Positions 44,067 through 61,625 of a stretch of DNA of 64,000 nt are shown piece by piece. The DNA lies in NCBI RefSeq assembly GCF_058153355.1, contig NZ_JBLWLY010000002.1. The stretch is one strand, 5' to 3'. How positions within the stretch are numbered: the first letter of the stretch is position 1; each line of letters opens with the position of its first letter. Under the pieces are notes generated by a model, which was not told the origin of the DNA, did no database searches, and was given only the letters and a program-made list of their open reading frames with translations. Origin of the DNA: a plasmid. The position numbers and the translations under genes are program-made.

Positions 44067-45658
44067 ATGAATCAAAAATACCTCATTCGCATTGCAGAAC
44101 TGGAATGCCAGCTCCGTCAGAAAGACCAGCAACTGAGTCTGGTTGAAGAGACGGAGGCCTTCCTGCGCTCTGCACTGGCCCGCGCCGAAGAAAAGATCGA
44201 AGAAGATGAACGGGAAATAGAACATCTGCGGGCTCAGATAGAAAAACTGCGCCGGATGCTGTTCGGTACCCGTTCTGAAAAACTGCGTCGTGAAGTTGAA
44301 CAGGCTGAGGCCCTGCTGAAACAACGCGAACAGGACAGTGATCGTTACAGTGGGCGGGAAGACGATCCGCAGGTTCCCCGCCAGTTGCGACAGTCTCGTC
44401 ATCGTCGCCCGTTACCGGAGCATCTGCCCCGCGAAATAAATCGCCTGGAGCCAGAAGAAAGCTGTTGCCCGGAGTGTGGCGGTGAGCTGGATTATCTGGG
44501 GGAAGTCAGCGCAGAACAACTGGAACTGGTGAGCAGCGCTCTGAAAGTGATCCGCACAGAACGGGTAAAAAAAGCCTGTACAAAATGTGACTGCATCGTT
44601 GAAGCACCGGCACCATCCCGTCCGATAGAGCGTGGTATCGCGGGCCCGGGGTTACTTGCCCGCGTGTTAACGGGAAAATACTGCGAACACCTGCCACTGT
44701 ATCGTCAGAGTGAAATTTTTGCCCGTCAGGGTGTCGAACTGAGCCGTGCATTACTCTCCAACTGGGTTGACGCGAGCTGCCAGTTAATGACGTCGCTGAA
44801 TGATGCCCTGTACCGTTATGTGATGAACAGCCGCAAAGTTCACACTGATGACACACCAGTAAAAGTGCTGGCACCGGGCAGGAAGAAGGCGAAAACAGGA
44901 TATATCTGGACGTATGTCCGGGATGACAGGAATGCCGGTTCGCCAGAGCCTCCGGCGGTCTGGTTCGCCTACTCACCGGACCATCAGGGTAAACATCCGG
45001 AGCAGCACCTTAGTCCCTTCCGGGGTATCCTGCAGGCAGATGCGTTTAATGGTTACGATCGGCTGTTCAGTGCCGAACGAGAAGGCGGCGCGTTGACGGA
45101 AGCAGGATGCTGGGCTCATGCGCGGCGCAAAGTCCACGATGTATATATCAGTACCAAAAGCGCGACAGCGGAAGAAGCACTGAAACTAATCGGTGAGCTG
45201 TACGCCATCGAGCACGAAATACGCGGGTTGCCGGTGTCTGAACGCCTGGCGGTCAGGCAAATGCAGAGTAAACCGCTACTGACTTCCCTGTATAAGCTGA
45301 TGCAGAGAAAGAACACACGTTATCGAAAAAATGCCGTCTGAGAGATGCGTTCCGGTATATCAGGAAGCACTGGGTTGTGTTGTGCAATTTCAGTGATGAT
45401 GGTCTGGCTGAGGCGGATAATAATGCCGCGGAAAGAGCGCTTCGTGCAGTCTGTCTCGGAAAGAAAAACTTTATGTTCTTCGGCAGCGATCACGGTGGAG
45501 AGCGTGGTGCGCTACTGTACGGGCTGACCGGCACCTGCCGACTGAACGGTATCGATCCGGAAGCGTATCTGCGCCATATCCTGAGCGTACTGCCGGAATG
45601 GCCTTCCAACCGTGTTGACGAACTCCTGCCATGGAACGTAGCACTCACCAATAAATAA
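44067..45658 (+). pseudogene. tnpC: IS66-family TnpC transposase, interrupted around 45340
   Basis: 424-aa N-terminal ORF with a zinc-finger-like CxxC..CxxC plus a 93-aa C-terminal ORF in another frame. Confidence 0.7.
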
Positions 45659-47206
45659 GCGTCAATACGGTGCTCCGTTGACGCTGATATGACTTTCCGT
45701 GTCAAACCGGAATCTCTAATTTTGACGATTTTCTTTTTAGGTTTAATTCCCTGAGGGCGACGTAGCAGTAAATCCGACGGTGAATCACGCTGATATTCGC
45801 GGGTTGGATACCGCATTACAGAGGTCCGTCATATGAGCCTGCCACTTTCTTACGTCGCGAATCAGCTTTGTTCCGCCGTCGCCAAGCGCTAACGTGGGTT
45901 ACTCTTGTACCGGGCTACGTCGCCTTCAGGGAACTGGTTATTCTCATTTTTTATTTGTGACATTGTGGTTGTTGTGCGACAGACATTGCTATTCGGCCCA
46001 TATCCCAGATAAAACCCGCCAGCTCACGTGCAACAGCAACAATTGTAATATTGACATTCTTTCCTTTGGCCTGAAGTTTTCGATACCTCTTACAAAGCCT
46101 GAGTTGAGCATCCCATGCTCTGTCAATGACGGGGCGGGGTAAATTTTCCTGCCTTTTTTGTATTGCCGGACTGATGCGTGCCGGATGACGGTAACTCCAC
46201 GCTGCCTCGACCAATAGCTTTCTGGCATAGCTGTTTCCGGCTTTGGTAATGCTGCCCTGATGTCTGCTTCCACCCGATGAATATTCTGATGGCGTGATAC
46301 CAAACCATGACATCAGTTGTCGTGGATGTTCAAAACGGGTCAGATCACCCAGTTCAGAAATTAATCCAACCGCAGTAATAAACTGAATCCCTCGCATGGC
46401 TTGCAGCGCCTCTACTACCGGATACAGCCTCCATTCGGTAACGGCCTCCTTCAGGGCGGATTCCAGCCGTTCACATTGTGCCTGCCGGTCTTCTATTGTA
46501 CGACGGTGTTCGTCAAAAGCTAATTGTCGCCAGGGACTTTCGAATGAGTATTTGCTGAGCCAGCGTCGGTGTGCAGGGCCCCAATCTGCTCGCCCGACAT
46601 AATGGACCCCATGAACCAGAAGAAACGATTTCAGACGTTGCCTTGCATGCCGTAAATCATCGCGGGCAGATGCCCATGCCCGGGCCAAATCCCGGAATGC
46701 CTCATCTTCAATGCCGGGTACGTAGACAGCAGAAAGATCTCCTGCACGCAGTGAACGCACAAGTCTGATGGCATCACGGCGATCGGTTTTAACCCGCTCC
46801 CCCGGTTTTTTCGGGATAAGTGAGGGGGCGCAGACCATGCAGTCAAAACCGGATTTCACCAGCCGACGATAAAGTCCATAACCACAGGGCCCCGCTTCAT
46901 AAACGATACTGACCTGCGATGACTTTGACCTGAGACGTTTACAAAGATTCTGAATATCAGTAGGTGATGTGCCAATTTTACCCATCAGTTCAACAGGTTC
47001 TGAATTGATAGCATAAGCGACAGTAATCGATTCTTTGTGAACATCTAACCCGACGTACAATGTGTTATTGTTGTTCATGCTGGCCTCCGTGGTGGAAATA
47101 CCGGGGTGTAGCAACAGCTCACCCATGCGGCTCTGACAACGATGTTAACCCGCGTTAAATATCCCACGTTGGCCAGCATCTGTCTCACGGAAAGTCATAC
47201 TGCCTT
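45357..47206. repeat. Large inverted repeat, copy A (IS66 tnpC 3' end plus IS110-family element), about 1.85 kb
   Basis: Near-identical inverted copy at 59802-61625; all embedded ORFs are identical between the copies. Confidence 0.85.
45951..47126 (-). CDS. IS110-family (DEDD) transposase
   Basis: ..LYVGLDVHKESITVAY.. N-terminal motif typical of IS110-family transposases; the likely start is the internal MNNNN at 47078. Confidence 0.8.
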   Translation of the reverse strand: MGELLLHPGISTTEASMNNNNTLYVGLDVHKESITVAYAINSEPVELMGKIGTSPTDIQNLCKRLRSKSSQVSIVYEAGPCGYGLYRRLVKSGFDCMVCAPSLIPKKPGERVKTDRRDAIRLVRSLRAGDLSAVYVPGIEDEAFRDLARAWASARDDLRHARQRLKSFLLVHGVHYVGRADWGPAHRRWLSKYSFESPWRQLAFDEHRRTIEDRQAQCERLESALKEAVTEWRLYPVVEALQAMRGIQFITAVGLISELGDLTRFEHPRQLMSWFGITPSEYSSGGSRHQGSITKAGNSYARKLLVEAAWSYRHPARISPAIQKRQENLPRPVIDRAWDAQLRLCKRYRKLQAKGKNVNITIVAVARELAGFIWDMGRIAMSVAQQPQCHK

Positions 47207-47264
47207 ACCAGAATTCTGAATGTTCTCCACAAAATTATAAACAGGCACCTTACATTGCATAAGA

Positions 47265-59780: not shown

Positions 59781-59801
59781 TAAAAAGTAAGTAAGGCAGT
59801 A

Positions 59802-61625
59802 TGACTTTCCGTGAGACAGATGCTGGCCAACGTGGGATATTTAACGCGGGTTAACATCGTTGTCAGAGCCGCATGGGTGAGCTGTTGCTACACCCCGGTA
59901 TTTCCACCACGGAGGCCAGCATGAACAACAATAACACATTGTACGTCGGGTTAGATGTTCACAAAGAATCGATTACTGTCGCTTATGCTATCAATTCAGA
60001 ACCTGTTGAACTGATGGGTAAAATTGGCACATCACCTACTGATATTCAGAATCTTTGTAAACGTCTCAGGTCAAAGTCATCGCAGGTCAGTATCGTTTAT
60101 GAAGCGGGGCCCTGTGGTTATGGACTTTATCGTCGGCTGGTGAAATCCGGTTTTGACTGCATGGTCTGCGCCCCCTCACTTATCCCGAAAAAACCGGGGG
60201 AGCGGGTTAAAACCGATCGCCGTGATGCCATCAGACTTGTGCGTTCACTGCGTGCAGGAGATCTTTCTGCTGTCTACGTACCCGGCATTGAAGATGAGGC
60301 ATTCCGGGATTTGGCCCGGGCATGGGCATCTGCCCGCGATGATTTACGGCATGCAAGGCAACGTCTGAAATCGTTTCTTCTGGTTCATGGGGTCCATTAT
60401 GTCGGGCGAGCAGATTGGGGCCCTGCACACCGACGCTGGCTCAGCAAATACTCATTCGAAAGTCCCTGGCGACAATTAGCTTTTGACGAACACCGTCGTA
60501 CAATAGAAGACCGGCAGGCACAATGTGAACGGCTGGAATCCGCCCTGAAGGAGGCCGTTACCGAATGGAGGCTGTATCCGGTAGTAGAGGCGCTGCAAGC
60601 CATGCGAGGGATTCAGTTTATTACTGCGGTTGGATTAATTTCTGAACTGGGTGATCTGACCCGTTTTGAACATCCACGACAACTGATGTCATGGTTTGGT
60701 ATCACGCCATCAGAATATTCATCGGGTGGAAGCAGACATCAGGGCAGCATTACCAAAGCCGGAAACAGCTATGCCAGAAAGCTATTGGTCGAGGCAGCGT
60801 GGAGTTACCGTCATCCGGCACGCATCAGTCCGGCAATACAAAAAAGGCAGGAAAATTTACCCCGCCCCGTCATTGACAGAGCATGGGATGCTCAACTCAG
60901 GCTTTGTAAGAGGTATCGAAAACTTCAGGCCAAAGGAAAGAATGTCAATATTACAATTGTTGCTGTTGCACGTGAGCTGGCGGGTTTTATCTGGGATATG
61001 GGCCGAATAGCAATGTCTGTCGCACAACAACCACAATGTCACAAATAAAAAATGAGAATAACCAGTTCCCTGAAGGCGACGTAGCCCGGTACAAGAGTAA
61101 CCCACGTTAGCGCTTGGCGACGGCGGAACAAAGCTGATTCGCGACGTAAGAAAGTGGCAGGCTCATATGACGGACCTCTGTAATGCGGTATCCAACCCGC
61201 GAATATCAGCGTGATTCACCGTCGGATTTACTGCTACGTCGCCCTCAGGGAATTAAACCTAAAAAGAAAATCGTCAAAATTAGAGATTCCGGTTTGACAC
61301 GGAAAGTCATATCAGCGTCAACGGAGCACCGTATTGACGCTTATTTATTGGTGAGTGCTACGTTCCATGGCAGGAGTTCGTCAACACGGTTGGAAGGCCA
61401 TTCCGGCAGTACGCTCAGGATATGGCGCAGATACGCTTCCGGATCGATACCGTTCAGTCGGCAGGTGCCGGTCAGCCCGTACAGTAGCGCACCACGCTCT
61501 CCACCGTGATCGCTGCCGAAGAACATAAAGTTTTTCTTTCCGAGACAGACTGCACGAAGCGCTCTTTCCGCGGCATTATTATCCGCCTCAGCCAGACCAT
61601 CATCACTGAAGTTGCACAACGCAAC
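59802..61625. repeat. Large inverted repeat, copy B (IS110-family element plus IS66 tnpC 3' end)
   Basis: Reverse complement of 45357-47206. Confidence 0.85.
59873..61048 (+). CDS. IS110-family (DEDD) transposase, second copy
   Basis: Identical protein to 45951-47126; likely start at 59921. Confidence 0.8.
   Translation: MGELLLHPGISTTEASMNNNNTLYVGLDVHKESITVAYAINSEPVELMGKIGTSPTDIQNLCKRLRSKSSQVSIVYEAGPCGYGLYRRLVKSGFDCMVCAPSLIPKKPGERVKTDRRDAIRLVRSLRAGDLSAVYVPGIEDEAFRDLARAWASARDDLRHARQRLKSFLLVHGVHYVGRADWGPAHRRWLSKYSFESPWRQLAFDEHRRTIEDRQAQCERLESALKEAVTEWRLYPVVEALQAMRGIQFITAVGLISELGDLTRFEHPRQLMSWFGITPSEYSSGGSRHQGSITKAGNSYARKLLVEAAWSYRHPARISPAIQKRQENLPRPVIDRAWDAQLRLCKRYRKLQAKGKNVNITIVAVARELAGFIWDMGRIAMSVAQQPQCHK

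What the first reader, a model, noticed from the sequence alone, without database searches (positions are those of the whole stretch)
45357..61625. Fimbrial module bracketed by about 1.85-kb inverted repeats built from an IS66 3' end plus an IS110-family element
Two identical inverted copies (45357-47206 and 59802-61625) flank a roughly 12.6-kb segment holding the divergent adhesin-like gene, a degenerate IS3, IS630 and the eight-gene chaperone-usher operon. This geometry is a substrate for homologous inversion of the whole module. Both repeats share the same IS66/IS110 junction, which implies duplication of a composite unit rather than independent insertions.
Basis: seen in the sequence. Interest (0 to 1): 0.65.

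Follow-up and report, generated by a model that had tools for sequence, protein, structure and literature searches.

The report
Nested-IS inverted repeats around fimbrial operon
Two near-identical 1.85-kb inverted repeats around a rare fimbrial gene cluster on a Shigella-type virulence plasmid are real, but their shared junction arises because an RNA-guided insertion sequence (ISSso6) homes to the tip of IS66-family elements, so the structure is ordinary insertion-sequence architecture that could invert rather than a special switch.

Summary
Arms 45360-47208 and 59791-61639 are 1849 nt and 1847/1849 identical. They bracket 12,582 bp holding an MrpH_C adhesin-like gene, IS3 and IS630 remnants, and an eight-gene Pap-like chaperone-usher operon.

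Each arm is the 3' end of one IS66-family element with ISSso6 (IS110 family, IS1111 subgroup) inserted 3 nt from the IS66 tip, at GTA-AG-CGT.

In 11 independent contexts ISSso6 sits at the same position. These include three IS66-family species, either end of the element, and a chance site in a chromosomal transketolase gene.

The ISSso6 right end encodes a bridge/seekRNA. Its two guide blocks covary with the target across 22 relatives (162/242 matches against 74 expected; 0/20,000 permutations). For ISSso6 they spell ACGTA-AG-CGCTAAC, the IS66-family terminus.

Homologous inversion is plausible. A related S. dysenteriae plasmid shows a 14.5-kb inversion with breakpoints inside two inverted ISSso6 copies. 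For this module, orientation could not be tested, because only three short-read contigs elsewhere carry it. Inversion would swap identical contexts, so a phase switch is unlikely.

Verdict: new member of a known kind, with modest interest.

The parts
43251..45685 (+). Left IS66-family element ('IS66-A'). It lacks its first 67 bp, including the left terminal repeat. It carries tnpA (43270-43689), tnpB (43686-44036) and tnpC (44067-45658), with tnpC frameshifted by a 1-nt deletion at 45304. Positions 45684-45685 are the CT core shared with ISSso6.
   Evidence: NCBIfam hits for IS66 TnpA, TnpB and TnpC. 99.6% identity to the intact copy in L001, starting at L001 position 5913, while the L001 left repeat is at 5846. 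Frameshift shown. An IS3-like end abuts at 43250.
45360..47208 (.). Left arm of the inverted repeat. It comprises the IS66-A 3' end (45360-45685), ISSso6 (45686-47203), the CT core (47204-47205) and the displaced IS66 tip TAC (47206-47208).
45686..47203 (-). ISSso6, left copy (1518 nt plus the 2-nt core). The transposase is at 45951-47078 (375 aa). The 14-bp subterminal inverted repeats are at 45688-45701 and 47186-47199.
   Evidence: NF033542 'IS110 family RNA-guided transposase', 273.7 bits against a cut-off of 140. RefSeq annotation as ISSso6. Subterminal repeats. 100% identical to the copy in L006 that carries intact WP_001063816.1.
45749..45931 (-). Bridge/seekRNA of the left ISSso6 copy. 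The right target guide GUUAGCGCU is at 45885-45893 and the left target guide ACGUAAG at 45849-45855. The donor-side AUAUCAG-C lies within 45782-45801. The outer stem is 45914-45931 paired with 45749-45766.
   Evidence: MFE -79 kcal/mol, z=-5.55. Consensus structure with the guides on opposite sides of one internal loop, and 7 compensatory pairs. Guide-target covariation with 0/20,000 permutations reaching the observed score. The base after AUAUCAG matches the first right-target base in 24/25 elements. Listed as 'RE / IS1111' in the Durrant 2024 supplement. Coordinates.
47268..48269 (-). Adhesin-like gene (334 aa from the likely ATG) with a C-terminal MrpH_C pilin domain. It is divergent from the operon.
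   Evidence: Pfam PF24223 is on record for the identical protein. No NCBIfam hit.
49277..50513 (.). Degenerate IS3-family element with 40-nt terminal inverted repeats.
51295..52307 (+). Degenerate IS630-family element whose transposase is split into two ORFs.
   Evidence: NF033545, E=3.6e-47. Pfam DDE_3.
52550..59780 (+). Eight-gene Pap/Sfp-like chaperone-usher operon: major subunit, PapH-like subunit, usher, chaperone, PapJ, and three minor subunits.
   Evidence: Pfam Fimbrial, PapC_N/Usher/PapC_C, PapD_N/C and PapJ. NCBIfam hits. Nearest DNA relatives are only about 81% identical.
59791..61639 (.). Right arm. It comprises the IS66 tip GTA (59791-59793), the AG core (59794-59795), ISSso6 (59796-61313, + strand; transposase 59921-61048; guides at 61106-61114 and 61144-61150), the AG core (61314-61315), and a reversed IS66-A 3' fragment (61316-61639).
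61640..62329 (-). IS3-family fragment (C-terminal part of the transposase plus its end) that truncates the right IS66 copy. It is unrelated to the IS3-like element that abuts the left IS66.
   Evidence: NF033516, E=2e-42. No similarity between 41000-43300 and 61600-64000.
31592..31613 (-). Unoccupied ISSso6 target: an IS66-family terminal repeat, TGGTAAGCGTTAACCGAATGCC. It is the best-scoring free site in the window and is occupied by ISSso6 in EIEC pINV plasmids.
   Evidence: L093 and L094 have the identical left flank gttgatattgGTAA|ISSso6

Best explanation
Two copies of one IS66-family element sit in inverted orientation at the two ends of a horizontally acquired fimbrial module on a pINV-type plasmid, with their right-hand tips facing inward.

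Each copy was then hit at the same nucleotide of its right terminal repeat by ISSso6. ISSso6 is an IS1111-subgroup element. A structured RNA from its right end carries two guide blocks, GUUAGCGCU and ACGUAAG, that pair with the two strands of the sequence ACGTA-AG-CGCTAAC. That sequence matches the conserved tip of IS66-family terminal repeats (GTAAGCGT...). Insertion occurs at a 2-nt AG/CT core, 3 nt from the IS66 tip, always in one orientation.

Both the target and the insert are repeated sequences. Two independent homing events therefore produce two nearly identical 1.85-kb blocks with the same junction.

Later damage fixed the outer limits of the repeat. An IS3-family insertion cut the right IS66 at 61639. 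A different IS3-like element removed the left IS66's left end, and a frameshift inactivated its transposase.

The result is an immobile nested-IS structure. It is a passive substrate for RecA-type inversion of the 12.6-kb module, not a programmed switch.

Shown: the anatomy, the site specificity, the guide-target covariation, and the inversion precedent in a relative.
Inferred: the order of events, the independence of the two ISSso6 insertions, and that the ISSso6 insertion disables the IS66 end.
For: Anatomy. In S. dysenteriae L001 the same IS66 has its left repeat GTAAGCGTAAACTG at 5846. The 8-bp duplication GAACGTGA lies both before that repeat and after the TTAC that follows ISSso6. TTAC is therefore the true IS66 tip, and ISSso6 lies inside the IS66.

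Site specificity. I examined 11 independent contexts:
- the window's left and right arms;
- L001/L002b;
- the ISEc22 left repeat in L002;
- a second IS66-family repeat in L003-L005;
- a transketolase gene in L006;
- the E. coli chromosome in L007;
- L008/L009;
- L010;
- L091/L092;
- L093/L094.
All have GTAA to the left of ISSso6. Nine of the ten with a readable right side have GCGT. An empty allele of the L093/L094 site is present in the window at 31613.

RNA guide. ISSso6 has a short left end (126 nt), a long right end (264 nt) and 14-bp subterminal repeats. The right end folds with z=-5.55. Durrant et al. list ISSso6 as IS1111 with the bridge RNA in the right end. Across 22 Burkholderiaceae relatives and ISSso6, the two variable blocks match each element's own target at 162/242 non-core positions, against 74 +/- 8.7 for permuted pairings, with 0 of 20,000 permutations reaching the observed value. 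The consensus fold puts both blocks in one internal loop. The top-strand-complementary block is 5' of the bottom-strand block, which is the order reported for IS1111 elements.

Independence of the two arms. The inner flanks are unrelated. The IS66 parts differ at 2/327 positions and the ISSso6 parts at 0/1522, Fisher p=0.03.

Inversion precedent. L004 1-5051 aligns to L096 13080-8028 on the minus strand, and L004 3501-8060 aligns to L096 22498-27057 on the plus strand. The overlap between the two alignments is ISSso6 itself.
Against: - Duplication of the composite is not excluded. The two arms share four differences from the S. dysenteriae copy (45528, 45575, 46095, 47107), and their ISSso6 parts are identical. 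A recent duplication would also give that pattern.
- Both arm-distinguishing mismatches cluster in the outer 30 nt. That could instead mark the edge of a gene-conversion tract.
- The IS66-A repeat (AGCGTCAAC) has one mismatch and one G-T wobble to the right target guide. The best natural match is the other IS66-family repeat (AGCGTTAAC).
- One variant, L008/L009, has an off-consensus right flank with no compensating guide change.
- The permutation test does not correct for shared ancestry among relatives.
- No activity of this ISSso6 was measured.
- The order of IS66 arrival, ISSso6 arrival and truncation is inferred. The left-end flanks that would allow a duplication test for the window's copies are lost.
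Confidence: 0.75

Rival explanations
1. One reading: an IS66::ISSso6 composite formed once and was then duplicated as a unit. The route would be IS66 transposition of the nested element or a duplicative inversion, giving two copies with one junction.
For: The ISSso6 parts are 100% identical, and the arms share four differences from the S. dysenteriae copy. IS66-A carrying ISSso6 occurs at five or more sites. The L001 copy has a perfect 8-bp duplication around the whole nested unit, which unit transposition would also produce.
Against: The same junction occurs in three different IS66-family species, at either end of the element, and in a non-IS gene. The junction therefore carries no information about common descent.

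ISSso6 separates the last 3 nt of the IS66 right repeat from the rest by 1.5 kb. That should prevent IS66 transposase from using this end (inference).

The IS66 parts are more diverged than the ISSso6 parts, p=0.03. The inner flanks of the two arms are unrelated.
Confidence: 0.15
2. The two IS66 copies and the module were once an IS66-based composite transposon, with inverted IS copies and their outer left ends active. That transposon delivered the fimbrial genes to pINV, and ISSso6 and IS3 elements later fossilised it. This complements the best explanation for the origin of the geometry rather than excluding it.
For: The module is bracketed by inverted copies of one IS, with right ends facing inward. 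The module is absent from every other pINV searched. Its composition is lower in G+C than the surrounding insertion sequences: 0.33 for the adhesin region and 0.44 for the operon, against 0.50-0.53 for the IS elements.
Against: Both outer IS66 ends are missing, so no flanking 8-bp duplication can be read. No second locus with this unit exists to show mobility.
Confidence: 0.3
3. The arms were independent but have been homogenised by gene conversion between them. Under this view the near-identity reflects ongoing recombination between the arms rather than recent insertion.
For: Both mismatches lie in the outermost 30 nt and none in the inner 1819 nt. That is the pattern of a conversion tract ending near 45389.
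Against: Only two informative sites exist. Simple divergence, with two private mutations in the decaying left copy, fits equally well. The window's ISSso6 allele is also a common one, 100% identical to the L006 and L091 copies.
Confidence: 0.2
4. The module is a programmed phase-variation switch, so that inversion turns the fimbriae on or off.
For: Inverted repeats flank a fimbrial operon, and fimbriae are often phase variable (general knowledge).
Against: No tyrosine or serine invertase lies in or next to the segment. The arms are 1.85-kb transposable elements, not short recombinase sites. The operon, its upstream region and the adhesin gene are all inside the segment. Both ends abut identical ISSso6 left ends whose transposase genes read outward, so inversion leaves the local context unchanged.
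Confidence: 0.03
5. The repeats are an assembly artefact, either a collapsed or a duplicated repeat.
For: None specific. Long identical repeats are a known assembly hazard.
Against: There are two distinguishing mismatches and four unique flanks. Both inner junctions are reproduced in independent assemblies, GCA_043012465.1 and SRR28786219.
Confidence: 0.02

Closest known systems
[quoted passage not shown]
   Same: It is an IS1111-type element with subterminal inverted repeats. It inserts at one fixed position and in one orientation inside the terminal repeat of another transposable element. That creates nested elements with a recurrent junction.
   Different: The prey here is the IS66 family, with the tip GTAAGCGT, rather than the 38-bp repeats of Tn21-family transposons. 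The element is ISSso6, whose closest relatives (70-81% protein identity) are in Burkholderiaceae and aim at other targets. I found no paper stating the ISSso6 target.
ISEc11 and its seekRNA (Siddiquee et al. 2024, PMC11187229)
   Same: Both are IS1111-family elements of EIEC/Shigella. [quoted passage not shown] Natural retargeting among relatives is seen in both cases.
   Different: ISEc11 is 1443 bp and targets GTGAAAATACTG. ISSso6 is 1518+2 bp and targets the IS66 tip. Only ISEc11 has been tested experimentally.
IS621 bridge RNA (Durrant et al. 2024, PMC11208160)
   Same: Both have a two-strand guide logic around a 2-nt core (CT/AG) and an internal target-binding loop. Both have a donor-side guide that includes the core.
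   Different: In IS621 the RNA lies in the left end, with the bottom-strand guide first. In ISSso6 it lies in the right end, with the top-strand guide first. In ISSso6 the base after AUAUCAG additionally tracks the first right-target base.
IS-bounded invertible or transposable segments (Tn5/Tn10-type inverted IS pairs; IS-mediated inversions in Shigella pINV)
   Same: Long inverted IS copies flank cargo. Homologous recombination between them inverts the cargo, as documented here for L096 against L003/L004.
   Different: Here each arm is a nest of two elements, and neither IS66 copy retains usable ends. The unit cannot transpose as it stands.
fimS-type fimbrial phase switches
   Same: Inverted repeats are associated with a fimbrial operon.
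   Different: This locus has no dedicated invertase. Its repeats are about 200 times longer, and the whole operon rather than a promoter lies inside the segment.

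Membership tests
IS110 family, IS1111 subgroup (ISSso6) | DEDD-type IS110-family transposase | tested here: met
   NF033542, 273.7 bits against a cut-off of 140, E=2.2e-81. Annotated as ISSso6 in RefSeq relatives.
IS110 family, IS1111 subgroup (ISSso6) | Subterminal inverted repeats of 7-17 bp | tested here: met
   The 14-bp TATGACTTTCCGTG / CACGGAAAGTCATA lies 4-6 nt inside each end.
IS110 family, IS1111 subgroup (ISSso6) | Short left end, and a long right end encoding a structured non-coding RNA | tested here: met
   Left end 126 nt and right end 264 nt. 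Fold z=-5.55. Conserved structure with 7 compensatory pairs. Listed as RE/IS1111.
IS110 family, IS1111 subgroup (ISSso6) | [quoted passage not shown] | tested here: met
   Covariation across 22 elements, with 0/20,000 permutations reaching the observed score. The guide order is as reported for IS1111.
IS110 family, IS1111 subgroup (ISSso6) | Site- and orientation-specific insertion with no duplication beyond the core | tested here: met
   11 contexts; only the AG core is repeated.
IS110 family, IS1111 subgroup (ISSso6) | Circular intermediate with a junction promoter | not testable with these tools
   A conserved TTGACA lies at the right-end tip, but no convincing -10 element was identified.
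IS66 family | tnpA-tnpB-tnpC gene set | tested here: met
   NF047595, NF033819 and NF033517 hits. tnpC is frameshifted in the window.
IS66 family | Terminal repeats beginning GTAAGCG, and an 8-bp target duplication | tested here: met
   Shown for the same element in L001: left repeat at 5846 and duplication GAACGTGA.
IS66 family | Both ends intact in the window copies (mobility competence) | tested here: not met
   The left copy lacks its first 67 bp and the right copy is cut at 61639. Both right repeats are split by ISSso6.
Composite transposon | Two copies of one IS bracket the cargo | tested here: met
Composite transposon | Usable outer IS ends | tested here: not met
   No IS66-A left repeat exists anywhere in the window.
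Composite transposon | Target-site duplication flanking the whole unit | tested here: inconclusive
   The outer ends have been destroyed by IS3-family elements.
Programmed invertible switch (fimS, hin, shufflon) | Dedicated tyrosine or serine recombinase at the locus | tested here: not met
   All ORFs of at least 90 aa between the arms are accounted for as fimbrial genes or IS remnants.
Programmed invertible switch (fimS, hin, shufflon) | Short recombinase sites bounding a promoter that is separate from the structural genes | tested here: not met
   The arms are 1849-nt nested IS elements, and the whole operon lies inside.
Programmed invertible switch (fimS, hin, shufflon) | Both orientations present in a population | not testable with these tools
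   Only short-read contigs that end at the arms exist elsewhere.
Chaperone-usher (Pap-like) fimbrial operon | Usher, periplasmic chaperone and pilin subunits in one operon | tested here: met
   Pfam Usher/PapC, PapD, PapJ and Fimbrial. NCBIfam hits.
Chaperone-usher (Pap-like) fimbrial operon | Tip adhesin encoded at the distal end of the operon | tested here: inconclusive
   A MrpH_C-domain gene exists, but it is on the opposite strand, 4.2 kb upstream of the operon.

The most novel reading that the evidence does not exclude
ISSso6 is a natural RNA-guided 'IS hunter'. Its bridge/seekRNA is programmed against the conserved tip of IS66-family terminal repeats, so it colonises and probably disables those elements wherever they land. 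The resulting nested copies supply the long portable homology, and possibly recombinase-competent end pairs, that repeatedly invert segments of the Shigella/EIEC virulence plasmid. This fimbrial module could be one such segment. I could not find the IS66 targeting stated in the searchable literature.
Probability: 0.35. Interest if true: 0.5.

Novelty: new member of a known kind. Interest (0 to 1): 0.35.

Why it matters
The result corrects a tempting inference. For RNA-guided IS110/IS1111 elements, an identical junction between two transposable elements says nothing about common descent.

It provides a decoded natural guide-target pair (ISSso6 against the IS66-family tip) supported by covariation in a family that spans Enterobacteriaceae and Burkholderiaceae. 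That is a second example of one transposable element specialising in the ends of another.

It also shows that such nested copies have driven at least one large inversion in a Shigella virulence plasmid. This is relevant to interpreting pINV structural variation and to assembling these plasmids.

For the fimbrial module itself the practical consequence is small. The module is rare and immobilised, and any inversion is expected to have little effect on expression.

Tried and rejected
- **Rfam scan of 43-64 kb at E<=1:** no family matched, so no curated bridge-RNA model was available.
- **Close ISSso6 variants (L007-L010):** no guide changes, so no covariation signal. The odd right flank of L008/L009 stays unexplained.
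- **ISEc20 as a comparison partner:** unrelated. It is an IS110-subgroup element with no significant protein identity.
- **ISEc11:** a different element with a different target.
- **Whole-module search in PLSDB and in complete E. coli genomes:** no record covers 80% or more of it.
- **Exact-protein look-ups:** only three short contigs were found, and they end at the arms, so orientation could not be read.
- **Duplication test for past inversion of this module:** impossible. No IS66-A left end remains in the window.
- **L095 against L002:** the same arrangement, so no inversion.
- **Duplication test in L096:** the IS66-A left flank AGATATAT matches neither tip flank, so that locus has further history.
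- **S. sonnei pINV (L097):** shares only scattered pieces and did not help reconstruct the right arm.
- **The two IS3-family elements abutting the two IS66 copies:** not related to each other, so I rejected a single IS3-mediated rearrangement as the origin of both truncations.
- **Partridge & Hall 2003:** could not be read because it is not held.

Full report
**Observation.**
The window contains one long inverted repeat in the region. Its arms are 45360-47208 and 59791-61639, each 1849 nt, separated by 12,582 nt. A base-by-base comparison extended beyond the arms shows 1847/1849 identity. The two mismatches are at 45378/61621 and 45388/61611, both in the outermost 30 nt, and similarity is lost abruptly at all four boundaries.

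**Context.**
The first 25 kb of the window matches T3SS-effector regions of S. dysenteriae and S. sonnei pINV plasmids at 97-98%. The window therefore comes from a Shigella/EIEC-type virulence plasmid.

**What the arms are made of.**
- NCBIfam identifies the 391-aa ORF in each arm as an 'IS110 family RNA-guided transposase' (273.7 bits against a cut-off of 140).
- The genes to the left of the left arm are IS66-family tnpA, tnpB and tnpC.
- RefSeq relatives annotate the IS110-family element as ISSso6.
- The same IS66 element (called IS66-A here) is intact in S. dysenteriae locus L001. Its left terminal repeat GTAAGCGTAAACTG starts at 5846.
- In L001 the 8-bp sequence GAACGTGA lies both immediately before that repeat and immediately after the TTAC that follows ISSso6.
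- TTAC is therefore the true IS66 tip, and ISSso6 lies inside the IS66 right terminal repeat.

In window coordinates, the left arm is:

| Part | Coordinates |
|---|---|
| IS66 body | to 45683 |
| Core CT | 45684-45685 |
| ISSso6 | 45686-47203 |
| Core CT | 47204-47205 |
| IS66 tip TAC | 47206-47208 |

The right arm is the mirror image. The inner ends of the repeat are thus the ends of two separate IS66 insertions into unrelated DNA.

The outer ends of the repeat were set by later damage:
- The right IS66 is cut at 61639 by an IS3-family end.
- The left IS66 continues leftward, but it lacks its first 67 bp, where a different IS3-like element abuts.
- The left IS66 also has a 1-nt deletion that frameshifts tnpC.

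**ISSso6 is site specific for IS66-family tips.**
I extracted the flanks of every ISSso6 copy in the fetched loci. In 11 independent contexts the left flank ends in GTAA. In nine of the ten with a readable right side, the right flank begins (after the repeated AG core) with CGT. This reconstructs the target GTA-AG-CGT. The contexts are:
- the right repeat of IS66-A at five or more different sites;
- the left repeat of ISEc22 (L002);
- a second and a third IS66-family repeat variant (L003-L005, L091-L094);
- a chance GTAAGCGTTAAG inside a chromosomal transketolase gene of an EIEC strain (L006).

The window itself holds one free site of this kind, at 31592-31613. The identical site, with the same left flank gttgatattgGTAA, is occupied by ISSso6 in two EIEC pINV plasmids. 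This is a true presence/absence polymorphism.

**How the specificity is encoded.**
ISSso6 has the IS1111-subgroup anatomy:
- a 126-nt left end and a 264-nt right end;
- 14-bp subterminal inverted repeats;
- an entry as 'RE / IS1111' in the supplementary table of Durrant et al. 2024.

The right end folds far better than shuffled controls: -79 kcal/mol, z=-5.55.

One scan of representative genomes returned 77 relatives of the transposase, at 70-81% identity, almost all in Burkholderiaceae. Their ends are conserved (AG|NCAG-TATGAC ... GTCATATC|AG), but their flanking targets differ.

In an alignment of the right-end RNAs, the scaffold is nearly invariant except for two short blocks:
- The 5' block (ISSso6: GUUAGCGCU) is the reverse complement of each element's core plus right target.
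- The 3' block (ISSso6: ACGUAAG) is identical to each element's left target plus core.

At non-core positions the blocks match their own targets at 162 of 242 positions. Permuted pairings give 74 +/- 8.7 (maximum 116), and 0 of 20,000 permutations reach the observed value. That test does not correct for shared ancestry.

The consensus structure places the two blocks on opposite sides of one internal loop closed by conserved stems. Seven of the 48 predicted pairs show compensatory changes.

The guide order, with the top-strand match first, is the one Siddiquee et al. report for IS1111 elements. It is reversed relative to IS110-type elements such as IS621.

A further position behaves as programmed. 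The base after the conserved AUAUCAG (donor end plus core) equals the first right-target base in 24 of 25 elements.

For ISSso6 the guides specify ACGTA-AG-CGCTAAC. The IS66-family repeat GTAAGCGTTAAC pairs fully apart from one G-T wobble. The IS66-A repeat GTAAGCGTCAAC has one additional mismatch.

Identical IS66/ISSso6 junctions are what independent homing events produce, so the junction is not evidence for duplication of a composite.

Three further points favour independent insertions:
- The two arms end in unrelated DNA at the IS66 tips.
- ISSso6 splits the last 3 nt of the IS66 repeat from the rest, which should stop IS66 transposase from moving the nested unit. This is an inference, by analogy with IS4321/IS5075 in Tn21-family repeats.
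- The IS66 parts of the arms are more diverged than the ISSso6 parts: 2/327 against 0/1522, Fisher p=0.03.

Duplication is not excluded. The arms share four differences from the S. dysenteriae copy. The clustering of the two mismatches at the outer edge could also mark a gene-conversion boundary. I put independent insertion at roughly 0.7 and composite duplication at 0.15.

**The cargo.**
Between the arms lie:
- a 334-aa adhesin-like gene with a MrpH_C domain (47268-48269, minus strand);
- a degenerate IS3 (49277-50513);
- a degenerate IS630 (51295-52307);
- an eight-gene Pap/Sfp-like chaperone-usher operon (52550-59780).

No plasmid in PLSDB and no complete E. coli genome carries the module, and the best DNA matches to the operon are about 81% identical. 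In the 153-billion-gene collection, only three short contigs encode the identical minor subunit. They come from GCA_043012465.1 and SRR28786219, and they end at the arms. These contigs confirm both inner junctions but cannot show orientation.

**Inversion.**
A 1.85-kb inverted repeat is a good substrate for homologous recombination, and I found a natural precedent. S. dysenteriae ATCC 12037 plasmid NZ_CP026829.1 (L096) has two inverted ISSso6 copies 14.5 kb apart.
- S. flexneri locus L004 positions 1-5051 (left flank plus ISSso6) align to L096 13080-8028 on the minus strand.
- L004 positions 3501-8060 (ISSso6 plus right flank) align to L096 22498-27057 on the plus strand.
- The overlap between the two alignments is ISSso6 itself.

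The segment between the copies is therefore inverted, with breakpoints inside ISSso6.

For the window's module, no equivalent test is possible. Both right-end flanks are the same IS66-A sequence, and both IS66 left ends are gone.

Functionally, inversion would exchange two identical contexts. Both ISSso6 left ends face the module, and both transposase genes read outward. The operon, its upstream region and the adhesin gene all lie inside the segment, and no invertase is present. A phase-variation role is therefore unlikely.

**Comparison with what is known.**
The closest precedent is IS4321/IS5075, IS1111-type elements that target the terminal repeats of Tn21-family transposons (title as cited). 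The RNA mechanism is that of the bridge RNA and seekRNA papers (PMC11208160, PMC11187229).

I found no statement in the searchable literature that ISSso6 targets IS66-family ends. However, the seekRNA authors ran a pipeline that derives target logos for all ISfinder members, so the logo may already exist in their data.

I rate the finding as a new member of a known kind. The inverted-repeat architecture is ordinary, the decoded guide-target pair and the inversion precedent are useful, and overall interest is modest (0.35).

Noticed in passing
window 31592-31613 (minus strand): An unoccupied ISSso6 target, the IS66-family terminal repeat TGGTAAGCGTTAACCGAATGCC. The same site with the same left flank is occupied by ISSso6 in EIEC pINV plasmids CP046677.1 and NZ_CP119442.1, where it lies next to virF.
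   Followed up: partly
window 47268-48269 versus 52550-59780: The MrpH_C tip-adhesin-like gene is on the opposite strand, 4.2 kb upstream of the operon, separated from it by IS3 and IS630 remnants. Pap-like operons normally end with the adhesin gene on the same strand. No PapB/PapI-type regulator lies upstream of the operon. The layout equals an ancestral A...F-G order with one block inverted, which suggests an earlier rearrangement unrelated to the arms.
   Followed up: no
L014-L090 (genome-contig scan): The nearest relatives of the ISSso6 transposase outside E. coli/Shigella (70-81% identity) are almost all in Burkholderiaceae: Paraburkholderia, Caballeronia, Cupriavidus and Variovorax. The only other enterobacterial hit is an 88%-identical fragment in Acerihabitans. 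The RNA scaffold is nearly invariant across this distance, which points to transfer across bacterial classes.
   Followed up: partly
L073 (Variovorax sp. WDL1) and L067 (Cupriavidus pauculus): Two distant relatives have right targets beginning AGCGT, like ISSso6. L073 has the identical left guide ACGUAAG and the target GGTAAGCGTGGCC, so it may also home to an IS66-type tip. The contig is too short to tell.
   Followed up: no
L091 20001-21857 (E. coli VL40 pINV): A full ISSso6 is followed directly by a tandem second copy of its last 338 nt (the part holding the right-end RNA) before the IS66 repeat. This is an unusual partial tandem duplication of the guide-RNA region.
   Followed up: no
L091 and L092 (EIEC pINV, Thailand): These plasmids carry a different fimbrial operon (F4/K88-like fae genes) a short distance from an ISSso6 nested in an IS66 element. 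This is a second case of a fimbrial cluster beside this IS pair on pINV.
   Followed up: no
L008 and L009 (E. coli chromosomes): An ISSso6 variant (98.5% identical) has the right flank AG|TGAATG instead of AG|CGT, with no compensating change in the guide blocks. It could be an off-target insertion or a later deletion.
   Followed up: partly
L096 17575-22538: IS66-A is itself interrupted by ISEc22, another IS66-family element. The 8 bp before its left repeat (AGATATAT) matches neither IS66 tip flank at the two ISSso6 copies, so this locus has undergone more than the single inversion.
   Followed up: partly
window 45686-45706 and 61293-61313: A perfect TTGACA (-35-like hexamer) sits 14 nt from the ISSso6 right-end tip and is conserved in all 25 family members. 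This fits a junction promoter formed on circularisation, as described for ISEc11. I did not identify a convincing -10 element in the left end.
   Followed up: no
window 48599-48798: The independent assembly GCA_043012465.1 breaks its contigs here (L013 ends at 48599 and L011 starts at 48798), in an AT-rich stretch upstream of the adhesin gene. The cause is unknown; it could be low coverage or a structural difference.
   Followed up: no
window 45304: A 1-nt deletion relative to the S. dysenteriae copy frameshifts the left IS66 tnpC, so neither IS66 copy in this region encodes a full transposase.
   Followed up: yes
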